NCBI GenBank assembly: GCA_964458635.1
Contig: CAYWJZ010000004.1
Span: 1-28,534 of the forward strand
Reading direction: 5' to 3'
DNA: 28,534 nucleotides
Source: an uncultured Atribacterota bacterium
Lineage (GTDB): Bacteria; Atribacterota; Phoenicimicrobiia; Phoenicimicrobiales; Stramentimicrobiaceae
Shown: positions 13,383 to 23,661 of the stretch, one piece after another
Layout: every line of letters starts with the position of its first letter
Numbering within the stretch: the first letter of the stretch is position 1
The notes under the pieces: model-generated
Told to the model about the DNA's origin: nothing
The model's database searches: none
What the model saw: only the letters and a program-made list of their open reading frames with translations
Program-made: the position numbers and the translations under genes

Positions 13383-13544
13383 TATTTTTTGTACCTTTTT
13401 AACTATTTATTCTGTAATATAAAAACAGGATAAAATATTAACACAATAAGTTATAATAAGCAAAGAAAATTTCTCTACAAAATAAAATTGACCGGCAAAA
13501 AAGTGATTAACGACATTTTCAACAAAATATTTTATGATTATTTA

Positions 13545-13573
13545 TTGACATGAACTTACTTTTATGCTAAATT
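13545..13573 (+). promoter_or_regulatory. Promoter of the aro leader/operon
   Basis: TTGACA (13545-13550), a 17-nt spacer containing an extended -10 TG (13565-13566), and TAAATT (13568-13573). Confidence 0.7.
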
Positions 13574-13609
13574 TATTTTCAATAATAAACAAAAAGAGGA
13601 TTATTAAAT

Positions 13610-13699
13610 ATGTTACTAAGGAAACAGAGCCAGCAAATATTTAATTTTAACTATTATTATTTTTATTTTATTGGCGATGTTTATGCCTTAGTATCATAA
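13610..13699 (+). CDS. Phe/Tyr-rich attenuator leader peptide (29 aa)
   Basis: SD AAGAGGA (13594-13600), ATG at 13610, TAA at 13697-13699. Translation: MLLRKQSQQIFNFNYYYFYFIGDVYALVS. Eight of codons 11-20 are Phe or Tyr. Confidence 0.85.
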   Translation: MLLRKQSQQIFNFNYYYFYFIGDVYALVS

Positions 13700-13775
13700 C
13701 ATAAACAATTATAAAATAGATACCATAGGCATGAACATCAGGGAGCCTATGGTATCTTTATATGTAGCTACATGT

Positions 13776-13814
13776 AAAGGGCTATAGGTTTTTTATTACC
13801 TATAGCCCTTTTTT
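13776..13814 (+). terminator. Intrinsic terminator of the aro leader (E:F hairpin)
   Basis: AAAGGGCTATAGGT (13776-13789) pairs perfectly with ACCTATAGCCCTTT (13798-13811). A T6 tract at 13809-13814 is followed by AGTTTTT. Confidence 0.9.
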
Positions 13815-13856
13815 AGTTTTTAATTTTTTTAATCCATATAACAGGAGGTTAGGAAT

Positions 13857-14261
13857 GTGGCGATAAGAGGAATAAGAGGAGCAACGACAGTAAAGAAAAA
13901 TGATAAAAAATCTATCTTAGCAAAGACTAAAGAATTATTAATTGCCTTACAGGAAGCTAATAGTTTTGACACCAAGGATATTGCAAGCATCTTCTTTAGC
14001 ATGACCCGTGACCTAAATGCTGCTTTTCCAGCTGCGGCAGCTCGTCAACTGGGCTGGCAAAAAGTCCCTCTTTTCGGGGTTCAGGAAGCAGATATAGTAG
14101 ATACGGATGGACTGAAAAGATGTATTAGGATTCTTGTTCAGATTAATACTGAGAAATCTCAAGATGAGATAAACCATTGCTACTTGCATGAAGCAATGAA
14201 ATTAAGAAAAGATTTAACCAATAAAAAGGAGATTAAAAATGATTGTTGTAATGGATGGTAA
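13857..14261 (+). CDS. aroH: Chorismate mutase, AroH class (Bacillus type)
   Basis: IRGIRGATTV, FFSMTRDLNAAFPA.AAR, VPLF, RCIRIL, YLHEA..LR. GTG start with SD AGGAGG at 13843-13848. Confidence 0.92.
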   Translation: MAIRGIRGATTVKKNDKKSILAKTKELLIALQEANSFDTKDIASIFFSMTRDLNAAFPAAAARQLGWQKVPLFGVQEADIVDTDGLKRCIRILVQINTEKSQDEINHCYLHEAMKLRKDLTNKKEIKNDCCNGW

Positions 14262-15273
14262 GTCAAATGAGAGTCAGATTGACAAGATAACTGAGAAGTT
14301 AGAAAGTATGAAATTTGACCTGCAAATTATCAGAGGAAAGAATAAAATTGTCATTGGTATCATCGGGGATACCAGAAAATTAACCACTTTTCCCTTCCAT
14401 TCTTATCCGGGGGTCATAGATGTTCTCAGGGTCTTGAAACCATACAAACTGGCCAGCAGAGAATTCAAGGAGCTTTCTACTATTGTCAAAATTAATGATG
14501 TTTCTATTGGTGGGAAGGAACCTGTAGTTATGGCAGGTCCCTGTGCGATAGAAAGCGAAGAGCAGATCTATGAAATTGCTCGGAGAGTAAGCAGTGTGGG
14601 GGTTAAAGTACTGAGAGGAGGTGCCTTCAAACCCAGGACTTCACCTTACAGTTTCCAGGGTCTGGGCAAAAAAGGACTCAAAATAATGAGTGAAGCGGCA
14701 AAAAAATACGGACTATTGGTAATTACTGAAGTGATGTCTATTGAACAGATTGATATTATTGCACCTTATGCTGACATCTTTCAAATAGGAGCCAGAAACA
14801 TGCAAAATTTTATGTTGTTAAAAGAGATAGGGAAGACCAGAAAACCAGCAATGTTAAAGAGAGGTTTGTCCTCAACTATTGAAGAATGGCTATTATCTGC
14901 GGAGTATATTTTATCCGGAGGAAATAAAAAAGTAATCCTCTGTGAAAGAGGAATTAGAACATTTGAAAATTATACCCGGAATACCCTCGATCTAAGTGCT
15001 GTTCCTGCAATTAAAGAATTAAGTCACTTACCGATAATTGTTGATCCCAGCCATGCAACCGGAAGAAAAGAGCTGATCGGTCCCATGTCTAAAGCGGCAA
15101 TCGCTGCCGGAGCTGATGGTCTTATTATTGAAACACACCCCCATCCGGAGGCATCAATGAGTGACGGTGCGCAATCGCTGGATCTGGATCATTTTGAGAA
15201 TCTGATATCAGAAGTAGAACAAGTGGCTCATGCGGTTGGTAAGACCTTGAATCACAGTTATGCTTCTGTTTAG
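14239..15273 (+). CDS. aroF: DAHP synthase type I-beta with an N-terminal ACT-like regulatory domain, copy 1 (Ile31)
   Basis: MIVVM...GIIGD regulatory domain, AGPCAIES, GGAFKPRTSPYSFQG, QIGARNMQNF, LCERGIRTFE, DPSHATG, IETHP. Confidence 0.93.
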   Translation: MIVVMDGKSNESQIDKITEKLESMKFDLQIIRGKNKIVIGIIGDTRKLTTFPFHSYPGVIDVLRVLKPYKLASREFKELSTIVKINDVSIGGKEPVVMAGPCAIESEEQIYEIARRVSSVGVKVLRGGAFKPRTSPYSFQGLGKKGLKIMSEAAKKYGLLVITEVMSIEQIDIIAPYADIFQIGARNMQNFMLLKEIGKTRKPAMLKRGLSSTIEEWLLSAEYILSGGNKKVILCERGIRTFENYTRNTLDLSAVPAIKELSHLPIIVDPSHATGRKELIGPMSKAAIAAGADGLIIETHPHPEASMSDGAQSLDLDHFENLISEVEQVAHAVGKTLNHSYASV

Positions 15274-16371
15274 AAAGGAATATTCAGTTAAGAAAATAAT
15301 CAATAATAAGGAGATTAAAAATGATTGTTGTAATGGACGGACATTCTGATGATAAGAATTTGGATAAAATAACTGAAAAATTAAAAAGCATGGGATTCGA
15401 ATTACAGTTAAGCAAAGGAAAGAATAAAATTGTCATTGGTATCATCGGGGATACCAGAAAATTAACCACTTTTCCCTTCCATTCTTATCCGGGGGTCATA
15501 GATGTTCTCAGGGTCTTGAAACCATACAAACTGGCCAGCAGAGAATTCAAGGAGCTTTCTACTATTGTCAAAATTAATGATGTTTCTATTGGTGGGAAGG
15601 AACCTGTAGTTATGGCAGGTCCCTGTGCGATAGAAAGCGAAGAGCAGATCTATGAAATTGCTCGGAGAGTAAGCAGTGTGGGGGTTAAAGTACTGAGAGG
15701 AGGTGCCTTCAAACCCAGGACTTCACCTTACAGTTTCCAGGGTCTGGGCAAAAAAGGACTCAAAATAATGAGTGAAGCGGCAAAAAAATACGGACTATTG
15801 GTAATTACTGAAGTGATGTCTATTGAACAGATTGATATTATTGCACCTTATGCTGACATCTTTCAAATAGGAGCCAGAAACATGCAAAATTTTATGTTGT
15901 TAAAAGAGATAGGGAAGACCAGAAAACCAGCAATGTTAAAGAGAGGTTTGTCCTCAACTATTGAAGAATGGCTATTATCTGCGGAGTATATTTTATCCGG
16001 AGGAAATAAAAAAGTAATCCTCTGTGAAAGAGGAATTAGAACATTTGAAAATTATACCCGGAATACCCTCGATCTAAGTGCTGTTCCTGCAATTAAAGAA
16101 TTAAGTCACTTACCGATAATTGTTGATCCCAGCCATGCAACCGGAAGAAAAGAGCTGATCGGTCCCATGTCTAAAGCGGCAATCGCTGCCGGAGCTGATG
16201 GTCTTATTATTGAAACACACCCCCATCCGGAGGCATCAATGAGTGACGGTGCGCAATCGCTGGATCTGGATCATTTTGAGAATCTGATATCAGAAGTAGA
16301 ACAAGTGGCTCATGCGGTTGGTAAGACCTTGAATCACAGTTATGCTTCTGTTTAGAAAGGAATATTCAGTT
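14334..16371 (+). repeat. Tandem direct repeat: 14334-15289 is identical to 15416-16371 (956 nt, period 1082)
   Basis: Line-by-line comparison found no mismatch over the 956 nt. The first mismatches are at 14333/15415 and 15290/16372. Confidence 0.95.
15321..16355 (+). CDS. aroF: DAHP synthase type I-beta with an N-terminal ACT-like regulatory domain, copy 2 (Ser31)
   Basis: Identical to copy 1 from residue 33 to 344, with 12 substitutions in residues 8-32. It has its own SD (AAGGAG). Confidence 0.9.
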   Translation: MIVVMDGHSDDKNLDKITEKLKSMGFELQLSKGKNKIVIGIIGDTRKLTTFPFHSYPGVIDVLRVLKPYKLASREFKELSTIVKINDVSIGGKEPVVMAGPCAIESEEQIYEIARRVSSVGVKVLRGGAFKPRTSPYSFQGLGKKGLKIMSEAAKKYGLLVITEVMSIEQIDIIAPYADIFQIGARNMQNFMLLKEIGKTRKPAMLKRGLSSTIEEWLLSAEYILSGGNKKVILCERGIRTFENYTRNTLDLSAVPAIKELSHLPIIVDPSHATGRKELIGPMSKAAIAAGADGLIIETHPHPEASMSDGAQSLDLDHFENLISEVEQVAHAVGKTLNHSYASV

Positions 16372-17665
16372 GGATATAGCTATAGAGGGTATAAAAGACA
16401 GAAAGGTTAAAGGTATAATCACAGTACCCGGTGATAAGTCAATTACCCATCGTGCAATTATCCTGGCTTCAATTGCTCGGGGAGAATCCAGGGTCCATAA
16501 TTATCTGGATAGTTTGGATTGTAAAAATACTTTAAAGTGTATGCAGGCACTGGGTATTAAAATTGAAAAAATAAATAATACTCTTTTAAAAATAAAAGGG
16601 AAAGGCCTTCATGGATTACAGGCCCCAAAAGATGTTCTTGATGTGGGTAATTCCGGAACAACTATGAGATTATTATCCGGATTATTAAGCGGACAGGATT
16701 TTTGTAGCGTAATAGATGGAGATGATTCTATACGAAGAAGGCCAATGAAAAGAATTATTCAACCATTATCCTTAATGAATGCCCGGATAAAAGGAGTATT
16801 TAATATTAATTTCGCTCCATTAAGCATCATTGGAAGCAAACTACAGGGAATTGAGTATACTTTGCCGGTAGCAAGTGCACAGGTCAAGTCTGCCATTTTG
16901 TTAGCCGGTCTTTATGCAGAAGGAGATACAATTATCAGGGAGCCGGAAGTTACCAGGGACCACACGGAGAGGATGTTAATCTCAATGCAGGCAAATATTC
17001 AATCTTCTCCCGATCATAAGATAAAAATAAATTCTGATAAAGTCTTAACAGGAATTGATATTGATATTCCCGGAGATATTTCATCTGCCGCTTATTTCCT
17101 GGCAGCGGGATGTGCTAGAGAAGGTTCTGAGGTAACAATTAACAATGTCGGTATTAATCCGACTCGTATTGGATTTATTGATGTGTTAGAAAAAATGGGT
17201 TCACAGTTGGAATTGGTAAATCAAACAAATATTTCCAATGAGCCCAGGGCAGATATTAAAATTAAGGGTTCTTTGTTGAAGGGAATACATATTGATAAAG
17301 ATATGATTGCCGGTATTATCGATGAATTGCCCTTGGTTGCAGTGATTGCGACACAAGCTAGAGGAAAAACAGTGGTTAAAGATGCCCGGGAACTACGGGT
17401 AAAAGAAACTGATCGTATCAAAGCAATTGTAGATAGTTTATCGAGAATGGGGGCAAAGATATCAGAAAGAGATGATGGTTTTGAAGTGATTGGTCCAACA
17501 GAATTAACCGGAAGTGCGGTAAATAGCTACCATGATCATCGTATTGCCATGTCCCTGGCAATAGCAGCTTCTTATGCCGAGGGCAAAACAATAATTCAGG
17601 AAACCCAGTGTATGGATGTTTCTTATCCGGAATTTATGAAAGTTTATTATAAAATATTTCATTAA
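16370..17665 (+). CDS. aroA: 3-phosphoshikimate 1-carboxyvinyltransferase (EPSP synthase)
   Basis: PGDKSITHRA, GNSGTTMR, ASAQVKSA, TRDHTE, PGDISSA, RVKETDR, DHRIAM. TTG start. Confidence 0.96.
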   Translation: MDIAIEGIKDRKVKGIITVPGDKSITHRAIILASIARGESRVHNYLDSLDCKNTLKCMQALGIKIEKINNTLLKIKGKGLHGLQAPKDVLDVGNSGTTMRLLSGLLSGQDFCSVIDGDDSIRRRPMKRIIQPLSLMNARIKGVFNINFAPLSIIGSKLQGIEYTLPVASAQVKSAILLAGLYAEGDTIIREPEVTRDHTERMLISMQANIQSSPDHKIKINSDKVLTGIDIDIPGDISSAAYFLAAGCAREGSEVTINNVGINPTRIGFIDVLEKMGSQLELVNQTNISNEPRADIKIKGSLLKGIHIDKDMIAGIIDELPLVAVIATQARGKTVVKDARELRVKETDRIKAIVDSLSRMGAKISERDDGFEVIGPTELTGSAVNSYHDHRIAMSLAIAASYAEGKTIIQETQCMDVSYPEFMKVYYKIFH

Positions 17666-17684
17666 CAATATAAGGAGAAAAATT

Positions 17685-18554
17685 ATGGGCATTAAAACTT
17701 CAATTATTGGATTATTGGGGGAACATATAGAAAAAAGCCTTTCTCCTTTTATACATCAGCATTTTATTCGTTACTATTCTTTGAATTACCATTATTATCC
17801 TTTTCAAATAGCCGTTGACGATTTACGGGAGGCAATATTAGGAGTAAAAGCGTTAGGTATCCGGGGGGTAAATATTACTATTCCTTTTAAAGAAAGATCA
17901 ATGGAATTTATGGATTTCATTGATCCCCAGTCAGCAAAAATTGGAGCGATCAATACTGTAGTGAGTCATAATAATAGGTTGTATGGCTACAATACAGACC
18001 GTATTGGATTTAAACTGCCCCTGGTGAAAGATAGCAGAGTTGAACTTGCTGATAAGAAGGCCGTTGTTTTGGGAGCCGGAGGTGCAGCGAAGGCTGTGGT
18101 TTTTTCTCTGGCAGAAGAGGGTTGTTCCGGAATATCAATTTTCAACAGAAGCCTGCAGAATGCCCAGCAGATAAAAAAGAATTTTGAAGCCCTGTTTCCT
18201 CATTGTACGATAAAAGTATTTTCATTTCACGATAAAAACATGCAGAAAGAAATTAATGAAGCAGATCTGATTATTAATACTACACCACTGGGTAGCTGGT
18301 ATTATCCCGAAGAAAATCCTTTGCCTGAATATATTAAATTACCATTAAAATTATTTGTTTATGACCTTATTTATAATCCAGACAGAACTCCTTTGCTAAA
18401 AAAAGCAGAAAAGAATGGTAATAAAACAATAAACGGAAAAGCAATGCTGATATACCAGGCAGCCGAGAGTTTCTATTTATGGACCGATATTCGTCCTGAT
18501 CAGAAGATCATGACTCATGTATTGGATGAAATAGCGAAAAAGCTTTATATTTAA
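17685..18554 (+). CDS. aroE: Shikimate dehydrogenase
   Basis: SLSP..H, GVNITIPFK, AINT, GYNTD, LGAGGAA, NR, IINTTPLG, DLIYNP, ML.YQA. Confidence 0.95.
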   Translation: MGIKTSIIGLLGEHIEKSLSPFIHQHFIRYYSLNYHYYPFQIAVDDLREAILGVKALGIRGVNITIPFKERSMEFMDFIDPQSAKIGAINTVVSHNNRLYGYNTDRIGFKLPLVKDSRVELADKKAVVLGAGGAAKAVVFSLAEEGCSGISIFNRSLQNAQQIKKNFEALFPHCTIKVFSFHDKNMQKEINEADLIINTTPLGSWYYPEENPLPEYIKLPLKLFVYDLIYNPDRTPLLKKAEKNGNKTINGKAMLIYQAAESFYLWTDIRPDQKIMTHVLDEIAKKLYI

Positions 18555-18573
18555 TTTTAATGTATGGGAGGAT

Positions 18574-19752
18574 ATGCGGAAGATGTTGCGTTTTTTAGAT
18601 GCAGGTGAATCACATGGAAAATGTTTGTTGGGTATTATCGAGGGTTTTCCGGGTGGTTTCACTTTAGATAGTGAGGCTATAAACAAGGAACTGCAAAGAA
18701 GGCAGGGTGGATATGGCAGGGGAAATAGGATGAATATTGAAAGGGATCGTATTGATATTTTATCGGGAGTTATCTCTGGTAAGACCATAGGGAGTCCGAT
18801 AGGGTTGATGATTAAAAATAAGGATTGGGAGAATCAAAAAATAGAAGATCGGGAAAATTTAACAGTTCCAAGACCCGGACACGCTGATTTGGCCGGTGTA
18901 TTAAAATATAATCTGAATGATTACCGATCCATTTTAGAAAGGGCAAGTGCCCGTAAAACAGCCATGCGAGTAGCTATCGGTTCGGTTGCCGGGGAATTGT
19001 TAAAATATTTCTCTATTTTTACCTATAGTCATGTTGTTCGTATTGGCCAAATATCAGCCGAAAATAGAATAGTGAGCCTGAAGAAAGAACGAGAAAATAA
19101 TATTAAAAAAAAGATTAACCAATCATCAGTCTACTGTTTGGATTCAAATATTTCTGAAAAAATGTCTCAGGAGATAGACCGGGCTAAAAATGATGGAGAT
19201 TCATTGGGTGGCTTATTTGAAATAATAGTGCAGAATCTTCCTCCTGGTTTGGGAAGTCATGTTTTTTGGGATAGAAGAATTGATACCCGTATTGCGGGAG
19301 CTATTATGAGCATTCCCAGCGTTAAAGCAGTAGAAATTGGTGAGGGAATCAAAGGTTCAGAAAATAGAGGTTCTCAAGTTCAGGATGCTATTTATTATAA
19401 AGACGGACAGAATAAAAAATATAACAGAGTAGATTATTTTCGGGAAAAGAATTGGGCCGGAGGAATAGAAGGAGGTATAACCAACGGAGAAGATGTGATA
19501 GTTCGTGTTTATGTAAAACCCATTCCTACCTTACGCAAACCTCTTTCTTCGGTTGATTTAATAAGTAAAAAAGAAACAAAGGCAAATTATCAGCGATCTG
19601 ATGTTTGTGCAGTTCCGGCTGCAAGCGTTATTGGAGAAGCTGTGGTTAATTGGGAATTAGCAGCTGCCTTTATAGAGAAATTTGCCGGAGATTCTATTTG
19701 TGAAGTCGAATCCAATTATGGACATTATCTGGAGAGGCTAAAAAATTGTTAA
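18574..19752 (+). CDS. aroC: Chorismate synthase
   Basis: LRFLDAGESHG, RRQGGYGRG, PRPGHAD, ERASAR, GDSLGG, AGGIEGGITNG, KPIPTL, RSDVCAVP. The true start is probably the ATG at 18583, because SD GGGAGG is only 2 nt from 18574. Confidence 0.96.
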   Translation: MRKMLRFLDAGESHGKCLLGIIEGFPGGFTLDSEAINKELQRRQGGYGRGNRMNIERDRIDILSGVISGKTIGSPIGLMIKNKDWENQKIEDRENLTVPRPGHADLAGVLKYNLNDYRSILERASARKTAMRVAIGSVAGELLKYFSIFTYSHVVRIGQISAENRIVSLKKERENNIKKKINQSSVYCLDSNISEKMSQEIDRAKNDGDSLGGLFEIIVQNLPPGLGSHVFWDRRIDTRIAGAIMSIPSVKAVEIGEGIKGSENRGSQVQDAIYYKDGQNKKYNRVDYFREKNWAGGIEGGITNGEDVIVRVYVKPIPTLRKPLSSVDLISKKETKANYQRSDVCAVPAASVIGEAVVNWELAAAFIEKFAGDSICEVESNYGHYLERLKNC

Positions 19753-20273
19753 AGAGAAATATTTTTATTACCGGTTTTATGGGTACAGGCAAAAGCACTA
19801 TTGCCCACACCTTATCAAACAAAATGGGGAAAAAATGTATAGACATAGATAGTATTATTGAAAATAGGGAAGGAAAGCCCATCGTAAATATTTTTAATGA
19901 AGAGGGTGAAAGTTATTTTCGCAAATTGGAGAAGGAAGTCTTAAAGGAAATTCTAAAGAAAAAAAACTTGATTGTTGCTACCGGCGGAGGGACTTTGCTT
20001 GATGAAGAAAATTTTCAATTAGCTCAAAAAAATGGAATTATTGTTTTGTTAAAGGCAAGACCGGAAGTGATTTTTAATAGATTAAAAAAAGAAAACACCC
20101 GTCCTTTGTTATCAGGGGAAAACATGTTGGAAAAAATTATTTGTTTAATGAATAAGAGAAAAAAGCAATATAGTAGATTTACCAATTGTATAGATACATC
20201 AGATATTCCAGTTGAAGAAGTGGTAAAGAAGGTATTAAAGATTTGTCAGGGAGATGAATATGAAAACAATTGA
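19746..20273 (+). CDS. aroK: Shikimate kinase
   Basis: NIFITGFMGTGKST (P-loop), GESYFRKLE, VATGGG, RPLL. Confidence 0.95.
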   Translation: MLKRNIFITGFMGTGKSTIAHTLSNKMGKKCIDIDSIIENREGKPIVNIFNEEGESYFRKLEKEVLKEILKKKNLIVATGGGTLLDEENFQLAQKNGIIVLLKARPEVIFNRLKKENTRPLLSGENMLEKIICLMNKRKKQYSRFTNCIDTSDIPVEEVVKKVLKICQGDEYENN

Positions 20274-21372
20274 CATGCAATTTGAAAAAAAGTATTACTG
20301 TAAGATGATAATAGGCAATAATATTTTAGCAGACCTTAAAAACAATCTTATCCCTTTATTGCCCGCAAGAGAGGTTATTCTAATTACTAATCCTCTGGTA
20401 AAAAGACTCTATGGTGAACGGTTAGTTTATTCTTTATCCGGAGAAGATATTATCGTAAAAGTCATCGAAGTCCCCGATGGAGAAAAAAATAAGAATATTC
20501 ATGTTGCAGAAAATATATATGACCGACTGTTGGAATTAAAAACGAATCGCTCTACTACACTGATTGCCCTGGGTGGTGGGGTAATTGGAGATCTGGGAGG
20601 GTTTGTCGCTGCAACGTTTATGAGAGGAATTCCCCTGATTCATATCCCCACTACACTTTTAGCGCAGATTGACAGCAGTATCGGAGGAAAAGTAGCGGTG
20701 GATCATCTCAGGGCAAAGAATATTATTGGTAGTTTTTACCAGCCTATTGCCATTTTTACTGACTCTACGGTATTACAAAGCCTGCCGGATATGCATTTAA
20801 AAAATGGACTTGTAGAAGCGATCAAAATTGCTATTATTGGTTCTCCCTCATTTTTCCACTGGCTGGAGGAGAATATTGCTGGTTTATTACAAAAAGAGAG
20901 GGGAGCACTGGATATCCTGGTAAATCAGGCAATACAATTAAAAAGAGATATTATTCTCCAGGATCCATGGGAAAAAAAACACCGGCATTATTTGAATTTG
21001 GGGCATAGCATCGGTCATGCACTGGAAGCAATTGATAGTTACGAAATGCTAACACATGGTGAAGCGGTAGCAGCAGGGTTATTGCTGGAGGCCAGGTTAG
21101 CCTTTCATCGCAATATTTGCTCAAAAGAAGAGATAATAAAAATTGAAAATATTATTAAGAGATTAGAACTTCCCATGAAAATGGATCTCAGACAGATAAA
21201 TATGGAAAAACTCTGGAATATAATCCAACTTGATAAAAAAAATAAGAACGGAGTCACTCGCTTTGTTTTGCCTGAAAAAATCGGGAAAGTACATTTAGTT
21301 CAACCAATTTTTAAGGAAGATGTTGTTCATGTTTTTAATGCTATTTGTGACGGGAAAGAGGTGTTATGGTGA
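20254..21372 (+). CDS. aroB: 3-dehydroquinate synthase
   Basis: PDGEKNK, ALGGGVIGDLGGF, PTTLLAQIDSSIGGK, KNIIGSFYQP, EAIK, LNLGHSIGHA, HGEAVA, DKKN. Confidence 0.96.
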   Translation: MNMKTIDMQFEKKYYCKMIIGNNILADLKNNLIPLLPAREVILITNPLVKRLYGERLVYSLSGEDIIVKVIEVPDGEKNKNIHVAENIYDRLLELKTNRSTTLIALGGGVIGDLGGFVAATFMRGIPLIHIPTTLLAQIDSSIGGKVAVDHLRAKNIIGSFYQPIAIFTDSTVLQSLPDMHLKNGLVEAIKIAIIGSPSFFHWLEENIAGLLQKERGALDILVNQAIQLKRDIILQDPWEKKHRHYLNLGHSIGHALEAIDSYEMLTHGEAVAAGLLLEARLAFHRNICSKEEIIKIENIIKRLELPMKMDLRQINMEKLWNIIQLDKKNKNGVTRFVLPEKIGKVHLVQPIFKEDVVHVFNAICDGKEVLW

Positions 21373-21851
21373 AGATAGGTGTTATTAATGGGCCTAATTT
21401 AAATCAACTGGGCAAAAGGAAAGAGGAACATTACGGTACTATTACTTTGGCAGAGATTAATAATAGATTGGAGAAATATGCACTTGAAATAGGTATTAAG
21501 CTGGAGTTTATTCAGTCAAATTATGAAGGAAAAATCATTGATAGTATCCAATCATTTTCAAATGAGGTAAATGGGATTATTATTAATCCGGGAGCTTTTA
21601 CTCATTATAGCTATGCCATAAGGGATGCCCTGGAAGATTGCTCTATACCGGTTATTGAAGTTCACTTATCCAATATTTTTTCACGAGAGGATTTTCGGGA
21701 AAAATCAGTTACCGTTCCTGTTTGTGACGGACAGATTGTCGGAATGGGTTATTATGGGTATCTTATGGCTATAAAAGGACTTCAATATCTGATTAAAGTG
21801 AAAAATTCCATCAATACCAATAAGGAGGTCTTTGATGAGCGAAGAAAGTGA
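21366..21851 (+). CDS. aroQ: Type II 3-dehydroquinate dehydratase
   Basis: NGPNLNQLGKR...YG, QSNYEG, INPGAFTHYS.AIRDA, EVHLSNI..RE.FR. Confidence 0.95.
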   Translation: MVKIGVINGPNLNQLGKRKEEHYGTITLAEINNRLEKYALEIGIKLEFIQSNYEGKIIDSIQSFSNEVNGIIINPGAFTHYSYAIRDALEDCSIPVIEVHLSNIFSREDFREKSVTVPVCDGQIVGMGYYGYLMAIKGLQYLIKVKNSINTNKEVFDERRK

Positions 21852-22716
21852 CTTTAAAAAAATAACCATTATTGGTACCGGTCTAATCGGGGGGTCGATT
21901 GGTCTAGCTTTGAAAAAAAGTGCTTATTCCGGCCAAATTTTTGGAATTGATAGAAAAGTAATAATTGCAAAAGCAATTCATTGTGGTGCAATCGATCAGG
22001 GGAGTGAAAAGATCGAAGAAGGTGTAAAAAATGCAGATATGATTGTTCTGGCTACTCCGGTTAGAGATATCATTGTATCAATGAACTTGATTAAACCTTA
22101 TTTATCAAAAAATTCTCTGGTTACCGATACAGGAAGCACCAAGACAGATATTATGGAGGAGGCAGAAAATCTATTTTCAGATAAACATGATTTTATAGGT
22201 GGTCATCCTATGGCCGGTTTGGAAAGAGGCGGAATAGAATATGCCCATCCTGATTTGTTTACAAAAAAGCCTTATATCGTGATTCCCAGCAAAAAAAACA
22301 CCCCTTCAGCAGAATTGAAGATGTCTTCTTTTGTCCAGCGCATCGGAGCTATTGAAATAAAAATGGAAGTGATTGAACATGATCGTGTTGTTGCTTTAAT
22401 AAGCCATCTGCCACAATTGATTGCGGTGTCGATGACTAATATGCTGGGGAGCCTGGTTGAAGAAAAGAATAATCCGGATTATTTTAGAATAGGTGGTAAT
22501 GTATTTAATGAAATGACCCGGGTTGCCAGCAGCCCTTTTACCATATGGAATGATATTTATCAAACCAATGCGAAATGGACGATTAAGGCTATCGAAGAGT
22601 TAGAAGAAATGTTAAACAATATTAAGCAAAAAATTACCAATAATCCTGCCGAATTAGAAAACGATTTTTCAAAAGCAAGGCATTTAAAAGAAAAAATATT
22701 AAAAATAAATAATTAG
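21832..22716 (+). CDS. tyrA: Prephenate dehydrogenase without an ACT domain
   Basis: GTGLIGGS, TDTGSTK, GGHPMAG.E, HDRVVA.ISHLP, MTRVA.S....W.DI. Confidence 0.93.
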   Translation: MMSEESDFKKITIIGTGLIGGSIGLALKKSAYSGQIFGIDRKVIIAKAIHCGAIDQGSEKIEEGVKNADMIVLATPVRDIIVSMNLIKPYLSKNSLVTDTGSTKTDIMEEAENLFSDKHDFIGGHPMAGLERGGIEYAHPDLFTKKPYIVIPSKKNTPSAELKMSSFVQRIGAIEIKMEVIEHDRVVALISHLPQLIAVSMTNMLGSLVEEKNNPDYFRIGGNVFNEMTRVASSPFTIWNDIYQTNAKWTIKAIEELEEMLNNIKQKITNNPAELENDFSKARHLKEKILKINN

Positions 22717-22758
22717 AAATACAGAAAAAATATATTATTAGAAAAGGGGTATAAATCA

Positions 22759-23661
22759 ATGGATGAAAGTGTCGACGAGTATGGAAAGAAAAAAACGGTT
22801 GCTTTACAGGGAGAAATTGGTTCATTCAGTGAGATGGCTGCTCTGCAATATTTTAGTTCTTCTATTGATATAATCTCTTGTAATAGTTTTGAAGAGGTTG
22901 GTGAAAAAGTCAAATCCGGTGAAGCGGAATATGCCATTTTGCCTATAGAAAACTCCCAGACCGGAGGGATTAATCAAGTGCATGACCTATTGTTAAAGGA
23001 AAGTTTGTTTGCAATCGGAGAGGTAGTCTTAAAAATAAAACACTGTTTGATAGCACATAATGATATTAGGATAGAGCAAATTGAGAAGATTTTTTCCCAT
23101 CCACAGGCATTAGCTCAATGTGAAAGATATTTATTAAAGCATTTTCCTGATTGTCAAATCATCCCGGTATATGATACTGCCGGAAGCATAAAACAGATTA
23201 AGGAATCAAGTGACTTGAAGTCAGCAGGTATTGCCAGCAGCAGAGCTGCAAGTTATTACAAGATGAAAATTGTGGATAGCGGGATTGAAGATAACCCTAA
23301 TAATTATACAAGATTTCTGGTATTTTCCTCACAAATAAGGCACCGCCAACATAATAACAAAACATCTATTATTTTTGCCGTAGTGAGTGTCCCGGGTGCG
23401 ATATATAAGTGTCTAAAAGAATTTGCTGTTCGAGATATTAATTTAAGTCGGCTGGAATCCAGGCCAAGTAAGGTAAAGCCCTGGGAATATGTTTTTTATA
23501 TGGATTTTGAGAAAGGATTACAGGAAAAAGTTTCACAGGATGCTTTGCAGTCATTAAAAAAATACACCACTTTCATGAAAATTATTGGAACATACCAATC
23601 CCAATCAAGTGTACTTGCTTCTGCTAAAAAACATCTACAGGATATGCGTAAAGATGAGTGA
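22759..23661 (+). CDS. pheA: Prephenate dehydratase with a C-terminal ACT domain, not fused to chorismate mutase
   Basis: VALQG..GSFS, PIENS..G, SHPQALAQC, DTAGS, NYTRF, KTSIIF, INLSRLESRP, EYVFY.D. Confidence 0.94.
   Translation: MDESVDEYGKKKTVALQGEIGSFSEMAALQYFSSSIDIISCNSFEEVGEKVKSGEAEYAILPIENSQTGGINQVHDLLLKESLFAIGEVVLKIKHCLIAHNDIRIEQIEKIFSHPQALAQCERYLLKHFPDCQIIPVYDTAGSIKQIKESSDLKSAGIASSRAASYYKMKIVDSGIEDNPNNYTRFLVFSSQIRHRQHNNKTSIIFAVVSVPGAIYKCLKEFAVRDINLSRLESRPSKVKPWEYVFYMDFEKGLQEKVSQDALQSLKKYTTFMKIIGTYQSQSSVLASAKKHLQDMRKDE

What the first reader, a model, noticed from the sequence alone, without database searches (positions are those of the whole stretch)
13545..13814. Unannotated dual Phe/Tyr leader peptide and attenuator controlling the whole shikimate-Phe/Tyr operon
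Seen, in order: a promoter (TTGACA-17-TGcTAAATT), SD AAGAGGA, a 29-codon ORF MLLRKQSQQIFNFNYYYFYFIGDVYALVS with 8 of 10 consecutive codons Phe or Tyr, alternative hairpins, a strong terminator with a U tract, and the aroH SD 29 nt further on. Established: enterobacterial pheL/trpL/hisL leaders sense charged tRNA this way, and they usually control terminal-branch operons; Firmicutes typically use T-boxes or TRAP. Inference: here one leader integrates both Phe-tRNA and Tyr-tRNA levels and gates the entire common pathway plus both branches. The ORF is too short for the supplied track, so it is likely missed by standard annotation. Caveat: TTT and TAT codons are frequent in AT-rich DNA, but the SD, the position and the hairpins argue against chance.
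Basis: partly seen in the sequence, partly recalled or inferred. Interest (0 to 1): 0.9.

Follow-up and report, generated by a model that had tools for sequence, protein, structure and literature searches.

The report
Phe/Tyr leader-peptide attenuator, Atribacterota aro operon
A 29-codon mini-gene packed with phenylalanine and tyrosine codons, followed by a chain of competing RNA hairpins and a terminator, very probably lets an uncultured Atribacterota bacterium switch on its whole aromatic amino-acid pathway when charged Phe or Tyr tRNA runs short: a classical mechanism, here as an undescribed family in a little-known phylum.

Summary
A promoter, an SD, a 29-codon ORF (13610-13699, 8 of 10 consecutive codons Phe/Tyr), alternative hairpins and a strong terminator (13776-13811) precede aroH and a ten-gene shikimate/tyrA/pheA operon.

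Composition alone is not significant in this AT-rich genome. The evidence is comparative:
- The element occurs in 41 of 51 other genomes of the window's order (Atribacterota, JS1 type). It was not found in 34 genomes of the phylum's other five families.
- It almost always precedes aroH.
- The ORF, its SD, a shuffled but persistent F/Y run and an invariant 6-nt spacer before segment 1 are all conserved.
- Six segments form five mutually exclusive hairpins of similar energy (about -19 to -26 kcal/mol), with compensatory changes. This resembles the his leader relay.
- The F:Y ratio tracks the operon content. It is mixed with tyrA+pheA, Tyr-rich with tyrA only, Phe-rich before a second DAHP synthase, and Tyr-only before an ABC importer.

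No Rfam family or T-box matches. The host is not a Firmicute. A precedent exists: C. glutamicum aroR, a Phe-Tyr-Phe leader before aroF. The verdict is a new member of a known kind.

This scan noted the same family earlier on other Atribacterota DNA. Function is inferred, not shown.

The parts
13545..13573 (+). Promoter: -35 TTGACA, 17-nt spacer, extended -10 TGc-TAAATT
   Evidence: Consensus scan. TTGACA and the TG-TAnnnT box are conserved in the 19 relatives' copies whose upstream flank was available.
13594..13600 (+). Shine-Dalgarno AAGAGGA of the leader ORF, 9 nt before the ATG
   Evidence: nearly every one of the 31 distinct copies has a purine-rich SD-like word 5-13 nt before the start codon.
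13610..13699 (+). Leader ORF, 29 codons plus stop (MLLRKQSQQIFNFNYYYFYFIGDVYALVS)
   Evidence: It is conserved as an ORF of 26-33 codons (one degenerate copy has 20) in 31 distinct copies. The exact peptide is absent from a 15-billion-protein collection, so it is not called as a gene.
13640..13669 (+). Regulatory codon run: F N F N Y Y Y F Y F (4 Phe + 4 Tyr in 10 codons)
   Evidence: The run persists with changed order and number of F and Y, and with TTT/TTC and TAT/TAC changes. Its last codon is always exactly 6 nt before segment 1.
13609..13621 (+). Segment 0: the start-codon region, which pairs with the 3' half of segment 1 to form hairpin 0:1 enclosing the F/Y run
   Evidence: MFE folds. 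In family f2 the equivalent segment covers the SD and the GTG start.
13676..13695 (+). Segment 1: the last codons of the ORF (DVYALVS), invariant also at synonymous sites
   Evidence: Alignments. It pairs with segment 2: 96% of cells are paired, against 22-41% when slid. dG is -22.8.
13719..13739 (+). Segment 2: pairs either with segment 1 or, through its 5' half, with segment 3
13745..13756 (+). Segment 3: the 3' arm of hairpin 2:3. It mimics the terminator's 3' arm and can pair with the terminator's 5' arm as antiterminator 3:4.
   Evidence: The 13-bp hairpin 2:3 has 5 compensatory pairs. Helix 3:4 is 98.6% paired, against 12-53% when slid, with GC<->AU compensation.
13756..13779 (+). Small conserved hairpin that stacks inside the antiterminator and overlaps the base of the terminator
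   Evidence: the closing pair covaries GC<->AU.
13776..13821 (+). Intrinsic terminator (segments 4 and 5: 14-bp stem at 13776-13811, then a T tract)
   Evidence: Three pairs are compensatory. dG is -22.7. One metatranscriptome contig of a close relative ends at 13814 (weak).
13857..23661 (+). Controlled operon: aroH (chorismate mutase), two DAHP synthases, aroA, aroE, aroC, aroK, aroB, aroQ, tyrA, pheA
   Evidence: NCBIfam. The same order of genes lies behind the leader in relatives. There is no strong internal terminator.

Best explanation
This is a ribosome-mediated (leader-peptide) transcription attenuator of the six-segment, his-leader type. Transcription starts about 7 nt after the -10 box. 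A ribosome translates the 29-codon leader while RNA polymerase moves on. Three outcomes follow. (1) Phe-tRNA and Tyr-tRNA are plentiful. The ribosome runs to the stop codon at 13697 and covers segment 1. Segment 2 pairs with segment 3, the terminator (4:5) forms, and transcription ends near 13814. (2) Either tRNA is scarce. The ribosome stalls on the F/Y run, and its front edge reaches at most the first base of segment 1, because the spacer is always 6 nt. Segment 1 is then free but cannot pair back with segment 0. It pairs with segment 2, the freed segment 3 captures the terminator's 5' arm (3:4), and polymerase reads into aroH and the ten genes behind it. (3) No ribosome loads. Hairpins 0:1, 2:3 and 4:5 form and transcription terminates. 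Shown here: the sequence features, the alternative pairings, their energies, their covariation, the conserved geometry and the linkage to aro genes. Inferred: translation of the ORF, stalling, the response to Phe and Tyr, and the timing.
For: The ORF, SD and F/Y run are conserved in 31 distinct copies from two families. The order and number of F and Y change while the run persists. The spacer from the last F/Y codon to segment 1 is exactly 6 nt in 31 of 31 copies. The stop codon comes 24 nt after the start of segment 1 in 29 of 31. Five mutually exclusive hairpins have balanced energies: in this window -24.0, -22.8, -20.3, -22.3 and -22.7 kcal/mol, and as means over 27 copies -25.9, -22.8, -23.8, -18.9 and -18.6. 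RNA from segment 1 to the terminator's 5' arm folds as 1:2 plus 3:4 (-45.1, z -7.4). In the terminated state 98.5% of cells are paired and 9 pairs have compensatory changes, reached by 0 of 500 shuffles. Helices 1:2 and 3:4 are 96% and 99% paired, against 12-53% when slid. The covariance model finds the element in 41 of 51 other genomes of the order and in 0 of 34 genomes of other families in the phylum. A whole-GTDB pattern scan hits essentially only Atribacterota-labelled MAGs. The gene downstream is aroH in nearly all copies, otherwise aroE or DAHP synthase. Leader composition tracks content: mixed F/Y with tyrA+pheA, Tyr-dominated where pheA is elsewhere, Phe-dominated before a second DAHP synthase, and Tyr-only before an ABC importer, including G000:C48. 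Segment 1 is invariant at synonymous sites while the F/Y codons vary synonymously, so the constraint on DVYALVS acts on the RNA. One RNA-library contig ends at 13814.
Against: There is no experimental evidence of translation, stalling or regulated termination. F/Y-rich windows are common by chance in this AT-rich genome. The whole-leader MFE is the terminated state, so read-through rests on kinetics that were not modelled. In C. glutamicum aroR, tyrosine availability had no effect (PMC11802643), so sensing of both amino acids is not assured. The genome has a trp operon, and its chorismate supply would be throttled by a leader without Trp codons. That requires basal read-through or another input. 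The metatranscriptome evidence comes from assembled contigs of relatives and is not strand- or end-resolved.
Confidence: 0.87

Rival explanations
1. The element is an RNA-only switch. The conserved hairpin relay is set by a ligand or an RNA-binding protein (riboswitch-like, TRAP-like or PyrR-like). The small ORF is a by-product of T-rich sequence and is not translated.
For: The strongest conservation is in the RNA segments, not in the peptide's N-terminal half. F/Y-rich frames arise easily in AT-rich DNA.
Against: An SD and start codon are kept at the right distance in the distinct copies. Indels in the ORF come in threes. The F/Y run stays in one frame, with an invariant 6-nt spacer and a fixed stop position. 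The F:Y ratio follows the downstream genes. No conserved unpaired pocket is left over once the five helices are accounted for. No Rfam match was found.
Confidence: 0.05
2. The element is a nascent-peptide arrest element. The invariant C-terminal DVYAL(V/A/T)S acts in the exit tunnel, possibly with free Phe or Tyr as in TnaC-type sensing. It stalls the ribosome at or near the stop codon, and that stall sets the RNA fold.
For: The C-terminal heptapeptide is nearly invariant in the aro-type copies.
Against: The same codons are invariant at synonymous third positions and are complementary to segment 2, which explains their conservation at the RNA level. The paralogous importer leaders end differently (LEEVYA, TPGVIAYRV) yet keep the pairing. 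A stall at the stop codon would favour termination, which gives the wrong sign for a biosynthetic operon unless the logic is inverted.
Confidence: 0.04
3. The ORF is a free-standing small-protein gene with its own terminator. The ORF encodes a functional hydrophobic micropeptide, the hairpins merely end its transcript, and the aro operon has its own promoter.
For: The ORF is conserved, and a strong terminator lies between it and aroH.
Against: No conserved promoter lies between the terminator and aroH (13812-13856). The antiterminator that competes with the terminator is conserved and covaries. The peptide's N-terminal half differs between families. Paralogous copies precede other aromatic amino-acid genes.
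Confidence: 0.03

Closest known systems
his operon leader (hisL attenuator) of Salmonella / E. coli
   Same: It has a leader ORF with a run of regulatory codons and six RNA segments that form alternative hairpins (A:B, C:D, E:F against B:C, D:E). It terminates when the leader is not translated at all. (Established knowledge; the relay here is shown.)
   Different: It senses one amino acid (His) in Proteobacteria. There is no sequence relation, and Rfam His_leader does not match. Here the regulatory codons lie in the loop between segments 0 and 1 and stop exactly 6 nt short of segment 1.
E. coli pheL-pheA and pheM-pheST attenuators (Rfam Phe_leader RF01859)
   Same: Ribosome stalling on Phe codons relieves an intrinsic terminator before a Phe pathway gene (PMC3082878, PMC11802643).
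   Different: They have four segments, Phe codons only, and control one terminal-branch gene or the synthetase. There is no Rfam match here. The element here carries Tyr codons as well and precedes the common pathway plus both branches.
Corynebacterium glutamicum aroR leader before the aroF (DAHP synthase) operon (Neshat et al. 2014, as reported in PMC11802643)
   Same: It is a leader peptide with mixed aromatic codons (Phe-Tyr-Phe) that attenuates an operon beginning the common shikimate pathway.
   Different: It has only three regulatory codons, occurs in Actinobacteria, and is reported to respond to Phe but not Tyr. Here there are 8-11 F/Y codons, a six-segment relay and an 11-gene operon. 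Homology could not be tested because no aroR sequence was on hand.
Multivalent attenuators thrL (Thr+Ile) and ilvL (Ile+Leu+Val) of enterobacteria
   Same: One leader peptide mixes codons of two or three end products, so shortage of any one gives read-through. (Established knowledge.)
   Different: They serve other pathways and other taxa and are unrelated in sequence.
T-box leaders
   Same: They also sense tRNA charging and act by terminator/antiterminator choice. A relative's trp operon carries one (75.9 bits, below the Rfam cut-off of 93).
   Different: A T-box binds uncharged tRNA directly and needs no translation. No T-box match was found at the aro leader even at E<=10.

Membership tests
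Ribosome-mediated (leader-peptide) transcription attenuators | Short ORF with SD and start codon in the 5' leader of a biosynthetic operon | tested here: met
   ORF 13610-13699, with the SD 9 nt upstream. It is conserved in 31 distinct copies.
Ribosome-mediated (leader-peptide) transcription attenuators | Cluster of codons for the amino acid(s) made by the operon | tested here: met
   8 of 10 consecutive codons are Phe/Tyr. The run is kept, with changed order, in relatives. The F:Y ratio follows the presence of tyrA and pheA.
Ribosome-mediated (leader-peptide) transcription attenuators | Intrinsic terminator between the leader ORF and the first structural gene | tested here: met
   A 14-bp stem plus T tract at 13776-13821, with three compensatory pairs.
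Ribosome-mediated (leader-peptide) transcription attenuators | Antiterminator mutually exclusive with the terminator, and its formation governed by a segment overlapping the ORF | tested here: met
   Helices 3:4 and 1:2 are 99% and 96% paired with compensatory changes. Energies are balanced. The fold of the stalled state is shown.
Ribosome-mediated (leader-peptide) transcription attenuators | Ribosome footprint at the stall site and at the stop codon selects opposite folds | tested here: met
   Only the geometry was tested. The spacer is 6 nt in 31 of 31 copies and the stop codon directly follows segment 1 in 29 of 31. The footprint sizes are taken from general knowledge.
Ribosome-mediated (leader-peptide) transcription attenuators | Read-through rises when the cognate charged tRNA is scarce and depends on translation of the leader | not testable with these tools
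   This needs reporter or in vitro coupled assays. The only hint is an RNA-library contig that ends at 13814.
Rfam leader families (Phe_leader, His_leader, Trp_leader, Leu/phe leader and others) | Score at or above the family's gathering threshold | tested here: not met
   There were no matches at gathering thresholds in the window. None of these families appears among the hits at E<=10 on 13383-13870.
T-box riboswitch | Match to the T-box model (specifier loop, T-box sequence) | tested here: not met
   no T-box hit, even at E<=10.

The most novel reading that the evidence does not exclude
A leader-peptide attenuator works only if a ribosome translates the nascent RNA within about 100-200 nt of the transcribing polymerase. 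Cultured Atribacterota (OP9 class) have a membrane-like layer around the nucleoid. In Caldatribacterium the ribosomes appear partly or fully outside it (PMC13408713); in A. laminatus they are on both sides (PMC7736352). No JS1-class isolate exists. The family of Phe/Tyr and Tyr attenuators is conserved throughout the JS1-type order and undetected in 34 genomes of the other families. It may therefore mark a real cell-biological divide: coupled transcription-translation is retained in JS1 and lost or reduced in the compartmentalised class. At the least, it is a genomic read-out of coupling in a phylum where this is an open question.
Probability: 0.2. Interest if true: 0.75.

Novelty: new member of a known kind. 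Interest (0 to 1): 0.45.

Why it matters
Four points follow.
- It adds an undescribed family, absent from Rfam, to the classical attenuators. The family lies in a phylum with very few cultures. It has two uncommon traits: tyrosine codons as the sensor, and control of the entire shikimate pathway together with both Phe and Tyr branches by one leader.
- Paralogous copies with different F:Y ratios occur before a second DAHP synthase, a peptidase and an ABC importer. They outline an aromatic amino-acid regulon and allow a function, tyrosine uptake, to be proposed for a PF04392-type transporter.
- The short ORF is missed by gene callers, so annotation of these MAGs can be improved.
- Because the mechanism requires co-transcriptional translation, the element gives an indirect handle on transcription-translation coupling in Atribacterota.

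Tried and rejected
- Rfam at gathering thresholds on the whole window, and at E<=10 on the leader, gave only sub-threshold noise and no leader family or T-box.
- Codon composition as a statistic was rejected. F/Y-rich windows are frequent by chance in the six-frame translation of G000.
- A crude genome-wide scan of G000 for other single-amino-acid leader ORFs with a terminator gave nothing credible. It also missed the C48 Tyr leader because of its weak SD, so it is not evidence of absence.
- In five genomes of the other families, the flanks of DAHP synthase genes held no F/Y/W-rich small ORF and no Rfam hit. The flanks were short and the operon starts were often outside them, so this is inconclusive.
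- I looked for a Trp-codon leader before the trp operon of relatives and found none. A T-box-like leader is there instead.
- Metatranscriptome contigs gave only anecdotal support: they come from relatives, are assembled, and carry no read ends.
- The exact peptide was looked up among 15 billion proteins and is not on record.
- Homology to C. glutamicum aroR was not tested because no sequence was available from a tool.

Full report
**Observation**

- The promoter is TTGACA at 13545-13550, then 17 nt, then TGc-TAAATT at 13565-13573.
- The SD AAGAGGA lies at 13594-13600.
- The ORF runs from ATG 13610 to the stop at 13697-13699 and reads MLLRKQSQQIFNFNYYYFYFIGDVYALVS.
- The terminator has a 14-bp stem at 13776-13811 followed by a T tract.
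- The aroH SD lies at 13843-13848 and the GTG start at 13857.
- The 286-nt leader folds much better than shuffles (z -7.1).

Downstream lie aroH (chorismate mutase), two DAHP synthases, aroA, aroE, aroC, aroK, aroB, aroQ, tyrA and pheA. There is no strong internal terminator. typA is divergent upstream.

Windows with 7 or more F/Y in 10 occur at more than 200 places in the six-frame translation of this 1.13-Mb genome. The codon run by itself proves nothing.

**Whose genome**

Contigs holding the same leader are titled Atribacterota or Candidatus Atribacteria. They include Ca. Sediminicultor, Oleincola, Oleihabitans and Phoenicimicrobium. This is the JS1-type class, which has no isolates (PMC13408713). 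The organism is not a Firmicute. The window has 34-38% G+C.

**Conservation**

A BLAST-level search found the leader DNA in 34 of 41 related genomes from two families of one order.

A covariance model was built on segment 1 through the terminator.
- It found the element in 15 of 21 genomes of family f1 and 26 of 30 of family f2.
- It found no copy in the 34 genomes of the phylum's other five families.

A pattern scan of all GTDB species representatives hit 28 contigs. Nearly all were labelled Atribacterota.

In 31 distinct copies an SD-preceded ORF of 26-33 codons is present; one degenerate copy has 20 codons. The order and number of Phe and Tyr codons change (FNFNYYYFYF, FYFSYLYFYF, NFFSFYFFYF, SFDFYYYYYY and others), but the run persists. 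Length differences within the ORF are multiples of three.

Two distances hardly vary.
- The last F/Y codon of the run ends exactly 6 nt before segment 1 in 31 of 31 copies.
- The stop codon lies 24 nt after the start of segment 1 in 29 of 31.

The promoter hexamers are conserved too. The exact peptide is not in a 15-billion-protein collection, so gene callers have not called it.

**RNA relay**

Six segments can be defined in window coordinates.

| Segment | Coordinates | Note |
|---|---|---|
| 0 | 13609-13621 | start-codon region; in f2 the SD plus GTG |
| 1 | 13676-13695 | codons DVYALVS |
| 2 | 13719-13739 | |
| 3 | 13745-13756 | |
| 4 | 13776-13788 | terminator 5' arm |
| 5 | 13799-13811 | terminator 3' arm |

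A small hairpin at 13756-13779 stacks into 3:4.

| Hairpin | dG in this window, kcal/mol | Mean over 27 copies |
|---|---|---|
| 0:1 | -24.0 | -25.9 |
| 1:2 | -22.8 | -22.8 |
| 2:3 | -20.3 | -23.8 |
| 3:4 | -22.3 | -18.9 |
| 4:5 | -22.7 | -18.6 |

RNA from segment 1 to the terminator's 5' arm is what exists when a ribosome is stalled upstream and the 3' arm is not yet made. It folds as 1:2 plus 3:4 (-45.1 kcal/mol, z -7.4). With segment 1 masked, the fold is 2:3 plus the terminator.

Covariation supports every helix.
- In the terminated state, 98.5% of cells are paired and 9 pairs have changes on both sides. None of 500 shuffles reaches this, and slid controls give 29-63%.
- Helix 1:2 is 96.2% paired, against 22-41% when slid.
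- Helix 3:4 is 98.6% paired, against 12-53% when slid. Each of these two has two compensatory pairs.

Segment 3 mimics the terminator's 3' arm, and both change together between the families. Segment 1 is invariant at synonymous third positions, whereas the F/Y codons vary synonymously. The conservation of DVYALVS is therefore an RNA constraint, not a peptide constraint.

**Mechanism (inferred)**

- With a ribosome at the stop codon, segment 1 is covered. Hairpins 2:3 and 4:5 form and transcription ends near 13814.
- With a ribosome stalled on the F/Y run, its front edge reaches at most the first base of segment 1, because the spacer is 6 nt. Segment 1 is free but cannot fold back on segment 0. 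Helices 1:2 and 3:4 form and polymerase reads through.
- Without translation, 0:1, 2:3 and 4:5 form and transcription terminates.

This is the logic of the enterobacterial his leader.

**Regulon evidence**

The gene behind the element is aroH in nearly all copies. Once it is aroE. In genus g11 a second copy precedes a lone DAHP synthase.

| Context | Leader composition |
|---|---|
| f2 operons: end with tyrA; pheA sits behind an ilvC-like gene with no leader | Tyr-dominated (3 F, 6-7 Y) |
| g11, before the second DAHP synthase | Phe-dominated (6 F, 2-3 Y) |
| Before an ABC importer (PF04392 binding protein plus permease) | Tyr only (6-9 Tyr) |

The importer leaders turned up as weak hits of the model (37-55 bits) and are paralogous attenuators. 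One lies in the window's own genome at G000:C48:92-181 and shows the same relay. Genus g4 has an F/Y leader before a secreted M20-like peptidase.

This match between codon content and gene content is the best available argument that the codons are what is sensed.

**Other evidence**

In one salt-lake metatranscriptome, a 198-nt contig of a close relative (k-mer depth 45) covers 13638-13814 and ends at 13814. Contigs across the terminator have depth 2-5. This fits termination there. It is weak evidence, because it rests on assembled contigs of relatives in which DNA carry-over is possible.

**Limits**

Nothing here shows translation, stalling or regulation. The genome also has a trp operon. A relative's trp operon carries a T-box-like leader (75.9 bits, below the Rfam cut-off). 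The common pathway therefore also serves Trp, which the leader does not sense, and basal read-through must cover that need. In C. glutamicum aroR only Phe limitation had an effect (PMC11802643), so dual sensing remains an inference.

**Comparison and novelty**

Leader-peptide attenuators are classical in Proteobacteria and are known in Actinobacteria and some Firmicutes (PMC1262725, PMC2965389). Mixed-codon leaders (thrL, ilvL) and an aromatic Phe-Tyr-Phe leader before a DAHP synthase operon (aroR) are known.

I found no paper linking Atribacterota with leader peptides. No Rfam family matches. The element is therefore a new family of a known kind, with an uncommon specificity (Tyr as well as Phe) and an unusually wide target (11 genes).

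This scan has already noted the same family on other Atribacterota genomes (e1-5213703, e1-4856200) and the Tyr-leader importer (e1-4518156). Those notes agree with this report but are not independent evidence.

**Wider reading**

The mechanism needs ribosomes on nascent RNA. Cultured Atribacterota of the other class have a membrane-like layer around the nucleoid. In Caldatribacterium the ribosomes are partly or fully outside it (PMC13408713). In A. laminatus they are on both sides (PMC7736352).

The attenuator family is found throughout the JS1-type order and was not found in 34 genomes of the other families. That could reflect a difference in transcription-translation coupling. I rate this as possible but unproven. 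The absence rests on a sequence-based model and on a brief look at five genomes.

Noticed in passing
G000 contig C48, 29-305 (own genome, outside the window): This is a second attenuator of the same build. It has a promoter, the leader ORF at 92-181 (MKIKHLLEIHSQYYYYYYYFTPGVIAYRV, 7 Tyr + 1 Phe), the same 1:2 / 2:3 / 3:4 / terminator relay, and then an ABC importer (341-aa PF04392-like binding protein, permease, ATPase). The importer is likely a tyrosine uptake system. Homologous Tyr-only leaders precede the same transporter in many relatives (L080-L083, L094-L099).
   Followed up: partly
window 14239-15273 and 15321-16355: The two DAHP synthases are 332/344 identical. All 12 differences fall in residues 8-32 of the N-terminal regulatory domain. 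It may also reflect a recent duplication or gene conversion.
   Followed up: partly
L088-L091 and L040 (genus g11, family f2): A second copy of the attenuator carries a Phe-dominated leader (for example ..NSFNYFFFYFTTDVYALAS). It precedes a lone second DAHP synthase, whereas the aroH-operon leader in the same genomes is Tyr-dominated.
   Followed up: partly
L120-L123 and L124-L128 (family f2): In f2 the aro operon ends with tyrA and lacks pheA. pheA lies elsewhere, directly behind an ilvC-like gene, with no F/Y leader in front of it.
   Followed up: partly
L086 618-755 and L087 570-709 (genus g4, family f1): A related attenuator with the leader ..NSYYFFYFIPEVNAFGDW precedes a signal-peptide-bearing protein of more than 450 aa with an M20 peptidase dimerisation domain. 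It may be a peptidase induced on aromatic amino-acid shortage.
   Followed up: no
L085 520-760 (G008, family f1): A degenerate copy of the leader (MDNVQYGYFYYRGDLCALVP, hairpin 2:3 kept, no clear terminator) sits before a Glu/Gln-tRNA ligase gene. In the window glnS follows pheA. This looks like a remnant left after loss of the aro operon.
   Followed up: no
L106 4326-4688 (G009, family f1), upstream of trpE: The trp operon of a relative has a T-box-like leader (75.9 bits, E 1e-16, below Rfam's cut-off of 93) and a second partial T-box match behind it. The lineage therefore uses direct tRNA sensing for Trp and ribosome sensing for Phe/Tyr. G000 itself has trpB on contig C79.
   Followed up: partly
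window 13638-13814: In a salt-lake metatranscriptome, a 198-nt contig of a close relative (depth 45) ends exactly at 13814, the predicted termination point. Contigs that cross the terminator have depth 2-5.
   Followed up: partly
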